A DNA stretch of 64,000 bases from a phage. The DNA is taken from NCBI GenBank assembly GCA_036253495.1, contig GCA_036253495.1_4125.1. One strand, given 5' to 3'. How positions within the stretch are numbered: the stretch's first letter is position 1; each line of letters starts with the position of its first letter. The notes beneath the pieces are model-generated. The model did not search any database. It was not told the DNA's origin and was given only the letters and a program-made list of their open reading frames with translations. This document shows positions 43,564 to 49,107 of the stretch, in pieces. Both the position numbers and the translations under genes were made by a program.

Positions 43564-46500
43564 TTAAGCAGTACGTTGTGCAATAAACATATCTACTACT
43601 GGGCTGTATCCATCATAAATCAACTGAATGATACTAACTGTATTTTGTGTTTTGTTAATCTCACCACCTACTACTGCATAAGTACCATCAGTGATAAGTT
43701 CACGTCCACCAGTTGCATCTTGTTGTACGTAGATATAGTAAGAACCAGCCTTACCACTTCCAATCAATCCGTTAATTGGACCTAGTGTAGTTGATGCTTG
43801 GTCTAGTGTAATATAGTACACATTAGACTCACCATCAGGTGACCATGTTCCTTCACTTGGAGCAGCAACAGATGCCTGTACTTTAGCAGCAGGTGTAACA
43901 GCATACTTTTTAGTAGTTACACTTTCAGTTACTAAATCAGCAATATCTGTATGTAGTGTGCCTTCAATAGTCACATCTTTAGCAAATGTTGCATTTTCAG
44001 CAAATGAAGATGTACCAGTAACTGTGATTGCATCAGCAGACGCAGAACCTAGTGTTACAGCACCTTTAAGGTTAGTAGCACCAGTAATTTCTGCACCACC
44101 CGCAACTACATTGAAGCCACCCGCAGTGATTTCGATACCACCAGTACTAACAGTTAGTTTCTTACCGATAGTAACAACATCAGATAGTGTAGTTGCACCA
44201 GTAACTGCTAGAGTAGTGTTAATCTTAGCACTTGCCATAGTTGCTAGGCCAGAAGTTGTAATAGTTGCAGTAGTTACTGCACCAGACGCACTAACGTTTG
44301 CACCAGACACATCACCAGTTGTAGTGATTGCACCATCACCAGCGTTGATTGTAGCACCATTAGTTGCAATACCACCTTTCAAAGTACTCAAACCTTCAGC
44401 AGTGATTGTTGAACCAACTGTTAGGGTTGTACCAGCAGCGATAAAGGTTGTAGAAGTTAGAGATTTAACTTCGACTGCACTTGCAGATTGGTCCAGTGTA
44501 CCAATAATCTTACCACTAACAGTAAAGTCGCCAGTAGTTACTGCGTTACCATTAACAGTTAGGCTGTTAGCTGTTGAACCTTGTGCACCGAATGTTGCAG
44601 CACGTGCGTGCATATCTTCATCAGTAGTAATATCCTCAACTGCGTGAATTGTGGTATTAGAAGTTAATGAGTTCAGGGAAATATCCTGACCAGCCAAATC
44701 TACTGAACCGTTAATATTACCAGCAACAAATAGGTTACTACCAATATAAGTATCACCAACAAATTGGATAGTTTCCGGTCTTGAACTAACTTTAGGACCG
44801 ATGATAATACCTTTCGCAGAAATATCAGCTTTAGGCATAGTCACAGTAGACGCATCAGAGATGTTAACAGATGCACCATTAACAACCAAAGCACCACCAA
44901 CAGTCAAACCAGTAGTTACCGCTGCACTACCAAATGTACCTTTACCAGTTGTGGTAATTGTAGTACCAGTAATGTCACCAGCAGCAGTGATTGCGGTATT
45001 TGCACTAACAGCCAAACCACCAGTTAGAGTGCTTAGACCAGTAACTTCTAGTGTTTCTCTGGATTTCAAGCTTTTCGCATCAACTGGAGTAGTAGATAGA
45101 TCCAATGTTCCAGGGTTTAGTGTTCCATTAATGGTAACATCACCAGAAACTGTTAGTGAACTGAGAGCAGCTTCACCAGCGGTTAGTTTTCCAGTTAGAT
45201 TTGTAGTACCAGTAACAGCCAAAGCACCACCAGCACTTAGAGCACCAGTAACTTCCGCACTACTTAATGTAGCTTTACCACTTGTTGAAAGAGTAGTAGT
45301 GTTAGTACCACCATTTAGAGTTGAAACACCAGTAACAGTTAGTGTAGTACCAGCAGTTACAGAACCGAGTGCAGTTAAGTTAGCACTTGCATCAACACCT
45401 TCAACGTTTAGAACAGCAGAACCTAAGTTTAGGCTACCTTCAGGTGTAAATGCACCTTTAACAGTTAGGTCACCAGTAACAACTGCATCACCTGAAACAT
45501 CAACACTTGCTAGTGTTGCTTTACCAGAAGTTTGAAGAGTTGCGGATTGAACTTCACCAGTAGTTTTGATTAATGCAGAACCTGCATCAACACCACCAGT
45601 TAGAGTACTTAGTCCAGTAACGCCTAATGTTTCACCAATTGTCAAATAACCACCAACAGTTGCATCATTATCAACAGCTACACCAACACCAGTAGCACTT
45701 ACTTGGATTGATTTAGAAGTAATTTTACCACCAACATCAACAGTACCATCAAAAGTTGCAGCACCTACAGTATGTAGGGTTGAACTTAGTGTAGTTGCAC
45801 CAGAAATTGTTGGAGCACCAGTAATTGTACCAGTGGTTAGAATTAAGTCAGTACCAACTGTAGTACTTGTAGTACTTGCTAATGAGTTAGTTTCCAAATC
45901 AGCATTTGTGATAGTCAAGTTACCATCGATAGTAACGTCATTATCAACTTGTAGTGATTTAACAGTCAAATCAGTTGCACTAAAATCAACGGAAGTTGCA
46001 GTGAAAGCACCTTCAACGTGCAAATCACCAGTAACATCTGTTGGTTTAGCTAGTGTTATTTTATCTCCAGCACTTGTGTATGAACCAGCACTTACTGAAC
46101 CATCAACCACTGCCGCAGCAGCAACTTTCAAGTTTCCAGAAGCAACAGTCAAGCCACCTTTAGCAGTAATACCACCGACGTTTACAGTTACTGCGTTACC
46201 AAATGTTGAAGCACCAGTAACTTCAAGTGCACCAGTAACGGTCGCTTTACCACCGACTGTTGCATCACCAGTAACATTCAATTTACCAGCGGTTGCTTCA
46301 GTACTTGTTAGTTTTGGTAGAATACTTGGTTCAGTATTTTCAGTAACAGTAATAACACCAGAAGAAGTTAGTGATTTAACAGTTAGATCTGCCGCAGCAG
46401 CATTAATTGCACCATCAACAGTTAAGCTTCCACCAATGGTTGCACCTTCAGTTGTTGTTAATGATTTAGAACTGATATCAACTGGGCTTAAATCTAATCC

Positions 46501-49107
46501 ACCTTCAGGTGTAAATGTACCTTTAACAGTTAGGTCACCATGTACAACTGTATCATTTTCTAAATTAATACCATCGGTATTAACAATAGAAGGAGTAGTT
46601 ACAGAAACAGCAGAAACAGCAGCCAATGTACTTTCACCAGTAACATTTAATGTAGAAATGTTTGCTGTAGTTACTGTTGCTGTACCAGTTGTACTGTTAG
46701 TTGTAGTAATATCAGTACTTTGTAATTTTGGTAGAATGTTAGTTCCAGTAGCATCATTACTAATCACAGGACCAGCACTAGTTAAAGATTTAACACTTAC
46801 ATCTGCTGCACTTAAATCTACAGTACCATCAACAGTTAGGTTTCCACCTACATGTGCACTTTCAGATACATCAAGTGTTTTAACAGTTACATCAGCCGCA
46901 CTTAGGTCAATAACACCAGCCGTTAAAGTTCCAGTAACATTCAAATCACCACCAACTGATGCATTATGATCTACACTTAGACCAGTTCCGGTTCCGGTAA
47001 TTTGTGCGGAAGCTGCGGTCACTTTAGTAGTTGCTGTGATATTTGGGGCAGTGATAGTACCGTCAGATTCAATTGAACCAGTTTCTAATGCATCAGAACC
47101 AACACCAGTAACTTTACCAGTAACTTCAACTTTCAAGCCACTAAAGAGTGCGTTTCCACCAACACTTAGATTAGTCCCCACTGCAACTTCTTCAGTTGTG
47201 GTTACAGAATTAGGTAGAATGTCTAGACCATCAACGTTTGCTTTAATTGCAGCACCAGATAGTGTACCAGTAACGTTCAAATCTTTAACAGTGGTTGTTT
47301 GACCAACAACTTCAAATAAACCATCAACTACCGTGTTACCAACCAATGTGGTAGTACCGTCAACTGTTAGGTTTCCAGATGCAGTTACGTCAACACCTTT
47401 AACATTACCAGATGCAGTTACATCTTTAGGAGTAATGTCTTGACCAGCTAGTGTAATACCAGTTGTAGTTCCAGTAACAGTCAAATCAGTTATAGTTGTG
47501 CCTTTTAGAACGGAATCCCCATCAACTGTTAGTGTACCAGAAGCATCTAGATTAACACCACTAATATTACCAGAAGCAGTTACATCTTTAGGTGTAATAT
47601 CTTGACCAGAAATGTCAGGAACAAAACCAGTAACTGTACCAGTGAAATTAACGTCTTTGAATTGAGCCTTACCATCCACATCTAGAGTTAATGTATTTGG
47701 ATCTTGTACCGCATTACCAGTTATTTTCAAATAATCAAATAGGTTCAAACCTTTTGCTGTAATACCGTAGGTTGCTGCTGATACATCACCAAATGTAGCA
47801 GTTTTCAGTACTGTTAGATTTGCTGGAGTCATTAACTCGGACTGTACTTCGTTTTGTAGAATTACAGTTGGGCGTAAACCAGGAGCAGTATATGTAAAGT
47901 TAACTTTAGCATTCGTGTCTGCTACGTTTCCACCTAAAGTGACAGATTTTAAATTAGCATTCGCAGTTGAACCAACAATATTAGATTCTAGGTTTAATGC
48001 ACCTTTTAGTGTAGTTAGTTTTTCAACAACTAAATTATCCGCAGTAATATCACTTAGTACAAAGTTACCTGATAGTGTTCCAGTAATATCCAAATCACCA
48101 ACAGTAGTTTTACCAGTAATATTAGTAGTTCCATCAACTTGTAGGTCAGTTAATTGTGTTTTACCTTTAGTTACACGTAGAATTGGTGTGGTTGGATCTT
48201 GTATTGAGTTACCAGAAAGTGTTAGGTAATCAAATAGGTTCAAACCTTTTGCGGTAATACCATTGGTTGCTGCTGATACATCACCAAATGTAGCAGTTTT
48301 AAGTACTGTTAGATTTGCTGGAGTCATTAGCTCGGACTGTACTTCGTTTTGCAGAATTACAGTTGGGCGTAATCCTGGAGCAGTGTATGCAAAGCCTAGG
48401 CGTGCAGTCGAGTCCGCTGCATTAGAACCCAAAGATACAGCTTTTAGGTTTGCTACAGTATTAGTACCAATGATGTTTGATTCTAGGGTTACAGCACCTT
48501 TTAATGTAGATAGTTTTTCAACAACTAAATTATCGGTATTAACATCCCCTAATGTGAAATCACCATCTAATTTACCAGTTACAGTTAGATTCTCAACGGT
48601 TGCACCAGTTGCAGTAATATCAGTTGCTGATACAGTTGCAATGGTTGCTTCATTAGCAGTTAATTTATCAAAGCTTGCAGTGGTTGCTGCCGCAGCAGTG
48701 AGGTTACCATTTAATGTTGTTGTACCATTAACTTCTAATGCAGAAGTGGTGGTATCTTGAAAAATTGCTTTTCCTGATGTTTGTGTAATATCTTTGGCAA
48801 AAGTAGAAGTGCCATTAAAAGTAGCATTGGAATTAATAGTTGCTGTATCGGAACCAGCAGTAGTATTACCAATAACTGTATTGCCAAGTACATCCATTCC
48901 ACCCTTAAGTGACGCTTTGCCTGTAACATCGAGTGTTGTGTTGATTGTTGCTTGATCTACTGTAATTGCAGTGAAGGTAGCATCAGCGAAACTAACGGTC
49001 CCCTTAATGGTTACGTTTTTATCGAAGACCGCATTACCTTTAACTGATAATTCTTTACCAACATTAGTATTACCAGTTACTGCTAGATCTGTTTTTATCG
49101 AGTACAT
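43564..49107 (-). CDS. giant tail fibre protein (1847 aa, repetitive)
   Basis: Very long Thr/Gly/Ala/Val/Ser-rich ORF with short beta-repeat motifs and an internal duplicated domain. Confidence 0.7.
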   Translation of the reverse strand: MYSIKTDLAVTGNTNVGKELSVKGNAVFDKNVTIKGTVSFADATFTAITVDQATINTTLDVTGKASLKGGMDVLGNTVIGNTTAGSDTATINSNATFNGTSTFAKDITQTSGKAIFQDTTTSALEVNGTTTLNGNLTAAAATTASFDKLTANEATIATVSATDITATGATVENLTVTGKLDGDFTLGDVNTDNLVVEKLSTLKGAVTLESNIIGTNTVANLKAVSLGSNAADSTARLGFAYTAPGLRPTVILQNEVQSELMTPANLTVLKTATFGDVSAATNGITAKGLNLFDYLTLSGNSIQDPTTPILRVTKGKTQLTDLQVDGTTNITGKTTVGDLDITGTLSGNFVLSDITADNLVVEKLTTLKGALNLESNIVGSTANANLKSVTLGGNVADTNAKVNFTYTAPGLRPTVILQNEVQSELMTPANLTVLKTATFGDVSAATYGITAKGLNLFDYLKITGNAVQDPNTLTLDVDGKAQFKDVNFTGTVTGFVPDISGQDITPKDVTASGNISGVNLDASGTLTVDGDSVLKGTTITDLTVTGTTTGITLAGQDITPKDVTASGNVKGVDVTASGNLTVDGTTTLVGNTVVDGLFEVVGQTTTVKDLNVTGTLSGAAIKANVDGLDILPNSVTTTEEVAVGTNLSVGGNALFSGLKVEVTGKVTGVGSDALETGSIESDGTITAPNITATTKVTAASAQITGTGTGLSVDHNASVGGDLNVTGTLTAGVIDLSAADVTVKTLDVSESAHVGGNLTVDGTVDLSAADVSVKSLTSAGPVISNDATGTNILPKLQSTDITTTNSTTGTATVTTANISTLNVTGESTLAAVSAVSVTTPSIVNTDGINLENDTVVHGDLTVKGTFTPEGGLDLSPVDISSKSLTTTEGATIGGSLTVDGAINAAAADLTVKSLTSSGVITVTENTEPSILPKLTSTEATAGKLNVTGDATVGGKATVTGALEVTGASTFGNAVTVNVGGITAKGGLTVASGNLKVAAAAVVDGSVSAGSYTSAGDKITLAKPTDVTGDLHVEGAFTATSVDFSATDLTVKSLQVDNDVTIDGNLTITNADLETNSLASTTSTTVGTDLILTTGTITGAPTISGATTLSSTLHTVGAATFDGTVDVGGKITSKSIQVSATGVGVAVDNDATVGGYLTIGETLGVTGLSTLTGGVDAGSALIKTTGEVQSATLQTSGKATLASVDVSGDAVVTGDLTVKGAFTPEGSLNLGSAVLNVEGVDASANLTALGSVTAGTTLTVTGVSTLNGGTNTTTLSTSGKATLSSAEVTGALSAGGALAVTGTTNLTGKLTAGEAALSSLTVSGDVTINGTLNPGTLDLSTTPVDAKSLKSRETLEVTGLSTLTGGLAVSANTAITAAGDITGTTITTTGKGTFGSAAVTTGLTVGGALVVNGASVNISDASTVTMPKADISAKGIIIGPKVSSRPETIQFVGDTYIGSNLFVAGNINGSVDLAGQDISLNSLTSNTTIHAVEDITTDEDMHARAATFGAQGSTANSLTVNGNAVTTGDFTVSGKIIGTLDQSASAVEVKSLTSTTFIAAGTTLTVGSTITAEGLSTLKGGIATNGATINAGDGAITTTGDVSGANVSASGAVTTATITTSGLATMASAKINTTLAVTGATTLSDVVTIGKKLTVSTGGIEITAGGFNVVAGGAEITGATNLKGAVTLGSASADAITVTGTSSFAENATFAKDVTIEGTLHTDIADLVTESVTTKKYAVTPAAKVQASVAAPSEGTWSPDGESNVYYITLDQASTTLGPINGLIGSGKAGSYYIYVQQDATGGRELITDGTYAVVGGEINKTQNTVSIIQLIYDGYSPVVDMFIAQRTA
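47699..48690. repeat. internal tandem duplication (~495-bp unit) within the giant fibre gene
   Basis: Sequence from 47699 (ggatcttgtacc...) recurs from 48194 (ggatcttgtattg...) with high identity over more than 200 bp, then diverges. Confidence 0.7.

What the first reader, a model, noticed from the sequence alone, without database searches (positions are those of the whole stretch)
47699..48690. Recent internal domain duplication in the 1847-aa fibre gene
A ~495-bp unit is repeated in tandem within the gene. The copies are near-identical for more than 200 bp (protein segments ...YTAPGLRPTVILQNEVQSELMTPANLTVLKTATFGDVSAAT...) and then diverge. This is evidence of ongoing modular expansion of the fibre, possibly changing length or receptor reach.
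Basis: seen in the sequence. Interest (0 to 1): 0.35.

Follow-up and report, generated by a model that had tools for sequence, protein, structure and literature searches.

The report
Old fibre-domain repeat kept alike by recombination
The long tail-fibre gene of this giant E. coli phage holds two tandem copies of a 165-residue module; the doubling is old and shared with relatives, and the copies look young only because recombination between them keeps re-copying a short core, which is ordinary fibre-gene evolution.

Summary
The repeat is real. The 1847-aa fibre gene (43564-49107, minus strand) holds two tandem 495-bp units, aa 172-336 and 337-502. They are 71% identical in DNA overall. A core of 41 residues is identical in protein and 95% identical in DNA.

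It is not a recent duplication. Every Asteriusvirus relative examined has two or three copies at the same place, GAP32 has two and Serratia phage BF has one. Outside the core the two copies differ at synonymous sites (dS 0.7-0.95) about as much as this gene differs from its 121Q orthologue (dS 0.9-1.3). Only the core is young (dS 0.32, against 0.85-1.13 in relatives).

The best reading is an old duplication homogenised by gene conversion between the copies. Near-identical genomes carry different conversion patches. The window alone has first-copy letters at five second-copy sites, and three other strains have second-copy letters in the first copy.

Expansion does occur in relatives. The middle copy of CRJP21 is a clean chimera of the kind unequal crossing-over makes.

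The module's fold is unknown. It is the first element after the N-terminal ~170 residues (the baseplate anchor in phiTE), and it also occurs in the long tail fibre of phage phiTE.

This is an ordinary process in an annotated gene, so interest is low.

The parts
43564..49107 (-). Fibre gene, 1847 aa. It is the orthologue of phage A4 gene A4_569 and 121Q gp571, both annotated 'long tail fiber proximal subunit'.
   Evidence: ORF list. It is 97.9% identical in DNA to A4 over its full length, with conserved gene order. It matches phrog_4549 'tail fiber protein' at E = 1.4e-178.
48595..49107 (-). N-terminal ~171 residues (MYSIKTDL...), the presumed baseplate-attachment part that precedes the modules.
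   Evidence: This start is conserved in the RaK2-like fibre proteins, and the module begins at about residue 172 in most of them. That it attaches to the baseplate is inferred by analogy with the phiTE long tail fibre, where residues 14-171 were modelled on the baseplate (PMC11972413).
48100..48594 (-). Module copy 1 (aa 172-336).
   Evidence: Profile match with independent E = 1.4e-73; alignments.
47602..48099 (-). Module copy 2 (aa 337-502).
   Evidence: Profile match with independent E = 5.2e-76. Its 3' end has the 'last-copy' signature (V-DGKA...FTGTVTG...SGQ) shared with the last copy of all relatives and with the single copy of Serratia phage BF.
48220..48387 (-). Homogenised core of copy 1 (aa 241-296).
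   Evidence: 54/56 aa and 155/168 nt identical to the core of copy 2. dS is 0.32 over aa 241-299, against 0.69-0.95 in the flanks.
47725..47892 (-). Homogenised core of copy 2 (aa 406-461).
   Evidence: Same comparison. Among codons that encode the same residue in both copies, 9/54 differ in the window against 115/271 in six other Asteriusvirus copy pairs (Fisher p = 3.5e-4).
47773..47836 (-). Patch in the core of copy 2 where the window alone carries copy-1 letters. It is a candidate recent copy-1 to copy-2 conversion tract.
   Evidence: At 47773, 47775, 47779, 47827 and 47836 the window has T, C, T, A, C, the same as its copy 1. A4 and runs X1-X3 and X5-X8 have A, A, A, G, T; X4 and X12 show this at the first three sites, which are the only ones they cover. 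Six of the 34 window-versus-A4 differences in the first 5100 nt of the gene fall within 67 nt here.
48478..48552 (-). Second, older homogenised tract in copy 1 (aa 186-210, DNLVVEKLxTLKGA). Its partner in copy 2 lies at 47983-48057.
   Evidence: 62/75 nt identical. The motif is shared by both copies of the window and A4 but differs from both copies of every other phage. Synonymous differences dip here as well.

Best explanation
The fibre gene holds an old two-copy tandem array of a ~165-residue module placed directly after the N-terminal ~170 residues, the position of the baseplate anchor in phiTE. The array was inherited from the ancestor of the Asteriusvirus-like jumbo phages. Homologous recombination between the two copies, as gene conversion and possibly unequal crossing-over, repeatedly copies stretches of one copy onto the other. 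In the window/A4 lineage this has made a core of about 150-170 nt, and a shorter upstream tract, nearly identical, while the rest of each unit has kept diverging. The same recombination, when out of register, adds copies in relatives. Shown here: the repeat, its age, the drop in synonymous divergence in the core, conversion patches that differ between strains, and chimeric third copies in relatives. Inferred: the enzymatic mechanism, that each module lengthens the trimeric shaft by very roughly 10 nm, and that the module is beta-helical.
For: Age. Two or three copies occur at the same position in 121Q, fEgEco12 (both fibre genes), Turkey5 (both), CRJP21 and GAP32; Serratia BF has one. In a search of 1.84 billion representative proteins, several further diverged RaK2-like fibres have two copies. 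Flank dS between the window's copies is 0.95 (5' side) and 0.69 (3' side). Across the gene, dS between the window and 121Q is 0.9-1.3.

Conversion. Core dS is 0.32 in the window, 0.46 in A4 and 0.85-1.13 in the other Asteriusvirus copy pairs. Synonymous codon differences in the core are 9/54 against 115/271 (p = 3.5e-4). The core tree groups the four window and A4 copies together (92% support).

Still going on. Near-identical genomes differ in patches that match the other copy. The window has five copy-1 letters in copy 2, where A4 and eight other runs do not (X4 and X12 cover only the first three sites). Runs X3, X12 and X14 have copy-2 letters in copy 1 at 48373 and 48385, X3 also at 48376, and X12 and X14 also at 48352.

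Orthology signal. The 3' end and a one-codon indel (VTKGKT against V-DGKA) separate first copies from last copies in all phages, the window included.

Expansion by unequal recombination. CRJP21 copy 2 is like the last copy over its 5' two-thirds and like the first copy over its 3' third. Turkey5-B copy 2 has a different mosaic, so it arose in a separate event.
Against: The tree of the flanks also groups window copy 1 with window copy 2 (97% support). Among the 24 residue positions that separate first from last copies in other phages, window copy 1 matches the first type at only 5 and the last type at 6. Orthology of the 5' two-thirds of the unit is therefore not resolved, and a lineage-specific replacement of a whole copy cannot be excluded. 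The window-specific patch is discontinuous: 47806 and 47835 inside it still differ between the copies. It could be an assembly or polishing error in a repeat. No reads of the window's own sample could be laid. The Logan contigs show no 1- or 3-copy form, but contigs drop rare variants, and the only raw-read runs offered held no phage reads.
Confidence: 0.8

Rival explanations
1. One reading: the whole 495-bp unit was duplicated recently in this phage lineage and the ends have since diverged quickly.
For: The core is 95% identical in DNA. The two window copies group together in both the core tree and the flank tree.
Against: All relatives already have the array at the same site. Synonymous divergence in the flanks is 0.69-0.95, near the level between genus members, and three times that of the core. 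Neutral sites of a young duplicate should be uniformly similar. The first-copy and last-copy 3' signatures and the indel are shared with the relatives.
Confidence: 0.04
2. Copy turnover rather than conversion: in the window/A4 lineage one ancestral copy was lost and the remaining one re-duplicated (or a whole copy was overwritten) well before the split from A4. The copies are then younger than those of the 121Q group but not recent, and a later conversion made the core.
For: In the flank tree the window's copies are sisters (97% support). The 5' flank shows no orthology signal: 57% aa identity between the window's copies against 32-46% to either 121Q copy. The diagnostic sites are mixed. The period is 165 aa here and 170 aa in the other Asteriusvirus fibres.
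Against: The 3' end and the indel keep the first/last signature. Flank dS is close to saturation, so the event would still be old. Patchy conversion also explains the shared lineage-specific blocks such as DNLVVEKL.
Confidence: 0.12
3. No recombination: the core is alike only because purifying selection on the protein is strongest there.
For: The core is the best-conserved part of the module in every phage (76-85% aa identity between first and last copies, against about 40-64% in the flanks).
Against: Selection on the protein does not remove synonymous differences. Among codons encoding identical residues, 17% differ in the window against 42% in relatives (p = 3.5e-4). Strain-specific patches match the other copy.
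Confidence: 0.04

Closest known systems
Escherichia phage A4 gene A4_569 (USL83645.1) and 121Q gp571, both annotated 'long tail fiber proximal subunit' (genus Asteriusvirus)
   Same: Same gene in the same neighbourhood: a colanic-acid-degrading spike and structural proteins upstream, a 262-aa structural protein downstream. A4 is 97.9% identical in DNA and has the same two 165-aa modules. 121Q has two modules at aa 173-509.
   Different: Against A4, the C-terminal ~147 residues are only 80% identical, and the core of copy 2 differs at six clustered sites. Against 121Q, the protein is about 50% identical, the period is 165 rather than 170 aa, and the 121Q copies are not homogenised (core dS 1.03).
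Long tail fibre of Pectobacterium phage phiTE (PDB 9CUY/9MJN chain g, 'Putative tail fiber protein', 793 aa)
   Same: The module profile matches residues 179-339 at E = 3.2e-16. As in the window protein, the module starts right after the ~170-residue N-terminal part. In phiTE that part (residues 14-171) was modelled on the baseplate. The rest was predicted by AlphaFold as an extended trimeric beta-helix (PMC11972413).
   Different: phiTE has one copy and an unrelated N-terminal anchor, and is much shorter. The module itself was not modelled in the map, so no experimental fold exists. That chain g is the protein the paper calls LTF is my inference from its name and from the modelled range.
Internal repeats and recombination motifs of T4-type long tail fibre genes (gp34 and gp37 repeats; conserved-motif recombination in T-even adhesins). 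Cited from my own knowledge; not tested here.
   Same: Fibre genes built of repeated segments, in which recombination between conserved stretches changes length or swaps parts.
   Different: No sequence relationship to T4 gp34 was detected here: Pfam gives no hit to the whole protein. The 'gp34-like' label in the records is an annotation, not a result of this study.
Concerted evolution of tandem duplicates by gene conversion and unequal crossing-over (general population-genetic model; from my own knowledge)
   Same: Copies within a genome are more alike than orthologues over a tract. Synonymous sites are homogenised. Tract boundaries differ between strains. Chimeric extra copies occur.
   Different: Here it acts inside one phage structural gene on two copies only.

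Membership tests
Recent tandem duplication | Uniformly low synonymous divergence across the whole unit | tested here: not met
   dS is 0.95 (5' flank), 0.32 (core) and 0.69 (3' flank).
Recent tandem duplication | Close relatives carry a single copy | tested here: not met
   All seven Asteriusvirus fibre genes other than the window's own and GAP32 have 2-3 copies. Only the distant Serratia BF and a metagenomic relative have one.
Concerted evolution by gene conversion | Within-genome copies are more alike than between-genome orthologues over a bounded tract | tested here: met
   Core DNA identity is 91% between the window's copies and 66-76% to either 121Q copy. The core tree agrees.
Concerted evolution by gene conversion | Homogenisation reaches synonymous sites, and relatives show no such constraint | tested here: met
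   9/54 against 115/271 synonymous codon differences, p = 3.5e-4.
Concerted evolution by gene conversion | Tracts differ between closely related genomes and match the other copy | tested here: met
   A window-specific copy-1-like patch lies in copy 2. Runs X3, X12 and X14 carry copy-2-like letters in copy 1.
Concerted evolution by gene conversion | Regions outside the tracts keep the orthology of each copy | tested here: inconclusive
   The 3' end and the indel keep it. The 5' flank does not.
RaK2-like / Asteriusvirus long tail fibre protein (phrog_4549) | Profile match and conserved gene neighbourhood | tested here: met
   E = 1.4e-178. The gene order is the same in A4 and 121Q.
RaK2-like / Asteriusvirus long tail fibre protein (phrog_4549) | Present in the virion as a baseplate fibre | not testable with these tools
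   Putative fibre proteins of phAPEC6 were detected by mass spectrometry (PMC7247149). I did not map which of them is the orthologue.
phiTE-type long tail fibre module | Significant profile match, placed right after the N-terminal anchor | tested here: met
   E = 3.2e-16 to residues 179-339 of 9CUY chain g. The module starts at residue ~170-180 in most of the 38 representative clusters found.
phiTE-type long tail fibre module | Shared three-dimensional fold | not testable with these tools
   The AlphaFold2 monomer model failed (pLDDT 36). The region is not modelled in 9CUY.
Diversity-generating retroelement (template and variable repeat pair) | Mismatches between the repeats confined to adenines of one copy | tested here: not met
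   Core mismatches between copy 2 and copy 1 are T/G, G/A, A/T, C/A, A/G, T/C, A/T, A/T, A/G, with no one-sided adenine pattern. Both repeats are coding parts of the same protein.

The most novel reading that the evidence does not exclude
The conserved, repeatedly re-homogenised core could be kept as a built-in recombination substrate. A phage population would then always contain minority genomes with one, two or three modules, and so fibres of different reach, as a hedge against hosts with capsules of different thickness. A second reading is also not excluded: the core is a small sugar-binding unit (weak hit to a CBM35 structure, 2W3J, E = 0.086), and copy number would then tune binding strength.
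Probability: 0.08. Interest if true: 0.5.

Novelty: new member of a known kind. Interest (0 to 1): 0.2.

Why it matters
It corrects a tempting misreading. Near-identical stretches inside a phage fibre gene need not mark a young duplication; they can be the footprint of recombination between old copies. It also defines an uncatalogued ~165-residue fibre module. The module has no Pfam family and matches only 38 representative clusters among 1.84 billion proteins. It sits directly after the N-terminal ~170 residues in two unrelated fibre families, and its copy number is 1, 2 or 3. For people who engineer or compare jumbo-phage fibres, this marks a natural site where length can be changed in register. 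Beyond that, it is ordinary fibre-gene evolution.

Tried and rejected
1. Structure of the repeat unit. AlphaFold2 on copy 1 with a 7-sequence alignment gave pLDDT 36 and pTM 0.22, which is unusable, so no fold search was run. The second job was not spent, because the extra sequences found add almost no diversity.

2. Solved structures. The single sequence gave nothing. The profile found only phiTE 9CUY chain g, where the module is not modelled. The CBM35 hit (E = 0.086) is not significant.

3. Pfam. There is no family for the whole protein or for the 16 module copies. A single Bactofilin hit (E = 2.9e-4, one member) is at most a hint of beta-helical repeats.

4. Wider census. IMG/VR gave three loci (121Q, BF and GAP32 again) and the metagenome scan gave four, so the module is rare.

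5. Copy-number variants within a population. The four raw-read runs offered held no phage reads. Logan contigs of 12 runs show no joints, but contigs drop rare variants.

6. Searching the window's own genome was not possible, because no genome is held.

7. A diversity-generating retroelement reading was rejected on the mismatch spectrum.

8. Antisense ORFs on the + strand (47915-48229 and 48263-48760) were treated as by-products of the repetitive, biased coding sequence and were not pursued.

9. A literature search for gene conversion in fibre genes returned nothing specific.
Full report
WHAT IS THERE

The finding lies inside one long ORF on the minus strand, 43564-49107, which encodes 1847 aa. 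The window belongs to an Asteriusvirus-type jumbo coliphage. The gene is 97.9% identical in DNA over its whole length to A4_569 of Escherichia phage A4, annotated 'long tail fiber proximal subunit', and the gene order matches A4 and 121Q. It matches phrog_4549 'tail fiber protein' at E = 1.4e-178 and has no Pfam family.

- Tandem Repeats Finder gives 47732-48709, period 495, 2.0 copies, 74% matches.
- The repeat finder gives a 222-nt pair at 87% identity with spacing 495.
- The protein's self dot-plot has its strongest diagonal at offset 165 aa, scoring 533 against 180 for the next best.
- The units are aa 172-336 (window 48100-48594) and aa 337-502 (47602-48099). Overall they share 102/165 residues and 351/495 nucleotides.
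- The quoted peptide is 41/41 identical in protein and 95% identical in DNA. The wider core, aa 241-296, is 54/56 aa and 155/168 nt identical.
- The longest perfect run is 36 nt (permutation p = 0.002).

IT IS NOT A RECENT DUPLICATION

I compared fibre genes from seven other phages using a profile of the module.

| Copies | Fibre genes |
|---|---|
| 2 | 121Q gp571, fEgEco12 g317 and its neighbouring paralogue g316, the first Turkey5 fibre gene; all Asteriusvirus copies lie in the same position relative to the rest of the protein, with a 170-aa period |
| 3 | CRJP21 gp304, the second Turkey5 fibre gene |
| 2 | GAP32 gp220 (another genus) |
| 1 | Serratia phage BF gp225, a 349-kb metagenomic relative |

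A profile search of 1.84 billion representative proteins found only 38 clusters. Among the RaK2-like fibres that start with MYSIKTDL, several further diverged ones also have two copies. A second class of shorter fibres, with a different N-terminus, has one copy. In almost all of them the module begins at residue ~170-180.

The synonymous sites agree with an old origin. Between the window's two copies, dS is 0.95 in the 5' flank and 0.69 in the 3' flank. Between the window gene and its 121Q orthologue, dS is 0.9-1.3 along the whole gene, and between the window and A4 it is 0-0.04. So the flanks of the two copies are about as old as the divergence within the genus.

WHY THE CORE LOOKS YOUNG

Core dS is 0.32 in the window and 0.46 in A4, against 0.85-1.13 for first-versus-last copies in the other Asteriusvirus fibres. 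Among codons that encode the same residue in both copies, 9 of 54 differ in the window against 115 of 271 in six other pairs (Fisher p = 3.5e-4). Selection on the protein cannot explain that, and relatives show no constraint on these synonymous sites.

A sliding window shows two troughs, at aa 244-292 and, more weakly, at aa 186-210. In the second trough both copies share the lineage-specific DNLVVEKLxTLKGA. The core tree joins all four window and A4 copies (92% support). This is the pattern of concerted evolution by gene conversion.

CONVERSION IS STILL GOING ON

The window and A4 differ at 125 sites in this gene. Of these, 91 lie in the last ~450 nt. Of the 34 in the first 5100 nt, six fall within 67 nt of the core of copy 2. 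At all six the window's copy 2 carries the letter of copy 1.

I laid the Logan contigs of 12 public runs that hold near-identical sequence. At 47773, 47775, 47779, 47827 and 47836, A4 and runs X1-X3 and X5-X8 read A, A, A, G, T. X4 and X12 show this at the first three sites, which are the only ones they cover. Only the window reads T, C, T, A, C, the same as its own copy 1. At two or three of these sites the A4-type letter is also the common one in the last copies of other phages. The window state is therefore most simply a derived copy-1 to copy-2 conversion.

In the other direction, runs X3, X12 and X14 carry copy-2 letters in copy 1. All three do so at 48373 and 48385, X3 also at 48376, and X12 and X14 also at 48352. 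The window, A4 and X1, X2 and X4 do not. The diagnostic sites next to these are too close together for a 31-mer assembly path to have switched copies between them, so at least these variants are real recombinant sequence. That last step is my inference.

CAVEATS

- The flank tree also groups window copy 1 with window copy 2 (97% support).
- At the positions that separate first from last copies in other phages, the window's copy 1 gives a mixed signal.
- What clearly keeps the first/last identity is the 3' end and a one-codon indel. It reads VTKGKT...VDG in copy 1 and V-DGKA...FTGTVTG...SGQ in copy 2. All relatives share this, and the single BF copy has the last-copy form.
- An old overwriting of most of one copy in the A4 lineage therefore remains possible, and I give it about 12%. 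It would change the history but not the verdict on 'recent'.
- The window-specific patch is discontinuous: 47806 and 47835 inside it still differ between the copies. It could be an assembly error, and I could not lay the window's own reads.

EXPANSION IN RELATIVES

At sites where the first and last copies of CRJP21 differ, its middle copy is like the last copy for the 5' two-thirds and like the first copy for the 3' third, with the switch inside the conserved core. That is the product expected when copy 2 of one genome pairs with copy 1 of another. The middle copy of the second Turkey5 fibre gene is mostly like the first copy with patches like the last copy, so it came from a separate event. 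No 1- or 3-copy form appears in the A4 lineage contigs. The raw-read runs offered contained no phage reads, so minority forms could not be looked for.

WHAT THE MODULE IS

Its fold is unknown. The AlphaFold2 monomer model failed (pLDDT 36). The only solved-structure relative is the 793-aa 'Putative tail fiber protein' of Pectobacterium phage phiTE (9CUY chain g), matched at residues 179-339 with E = 3.2e-16. In that study the long tail fibre was modelled for residues 14-171 on the baseplate, and the rest was predicted as an extended trimeric beta-helix of 512 Å in total (PMC11972413).

By position, the module is the first element of the projecting fibre after the N-terminal ~170 residues, which form the baseplate anchor in phiTE. 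If the phiTE ratio of about 0.65 Å per residue applies, each copy adds very roughly 10 nm. That figure is inference. Asteriusvirus particles carry six baseplate fibres (phAPEC6, PMC7247149).

VERDICT

The repeat is real. The duplication is old. The apparent youth of the core comes from gene conversion that is still active among natural strains. Copy number changes by unequal recombination in relatives. This is a well-known mode of evolution in an already annotated gene. The small additions are an uncatalogued fibre module and direct evidence of conversion tracts that vary between strains.

Noticed in passing
window 43564-44007 (aa 1701-1847 of the fibre): The C-terminal tip is only 80% identical in protein to A4 (dS 0.49), while the rest of the gene is 99-100% identical (dS 0.04 or less). 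91 of the 125 differences lie here. It looks like a recombinational swap of the distal end between otherwise near-identical phages.
   Followed up: partly
window 47515-47613 and 47353-47451 (aa 499-531 and 553-585): A second, short tandem repeat (offset 54 aa...GQDITPKDVTASGN..GV...ASG.LTVDG; 24/33 aa and 77/99 nt identical) lies just after the module pair. The GQDITPKDV motif occurs twice only in the window and A4. The other eight fibres have one GQD(L/I) motif there. This may be a duplication truly specific to this lineage.
   Followed up: partly
L006 163-5883 (fEgEco12 g316) and L007 101-6463 (Turkey5): Some relatives carry a second, paralogous long fibre gene directly downstream of the orthologue, with its own 2 or 3 modules. 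The window, A4 and 121Q have only one fibre gene there, followed by the 262-aa structural protein. This is a whole-gene tandem duplication of the fibre.
   Followed up: partly
window 46282-47190 (aa 640-942) and further along the shaft: There are weaker internal periodicities, for example an offset of 138 aa with a recurring ...DLSAADV(T/S)VKSLT...GGNLTVDG... motif, and many 18-nt-phased short repeats of the (A/G)CACCAGTAAC type. The shaft is built from degenerate repeats throughout.
   Followed up: no
public runs X1-X3, X11, X12 (coded): Several runs labelled as one cultured organism, each with about 6 Mb of contigs, hold this jumbo phage's fibre region at 76-560x word depth, within contigs of 22-78 kb in X1, X2 and X12. 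The phage seems to travel with bacterial isolates, or these are lysate sequencings with host carry-over.
   Followed up: no
(tblastn of the module against phage records): The module gives weak but significant hits in rV5-like Vequintavirinae coliphages and in about 15 Campylobacter phage records. It is therefore shared across quite different myophage groups, always as a fibre protein.
   Followed up: no
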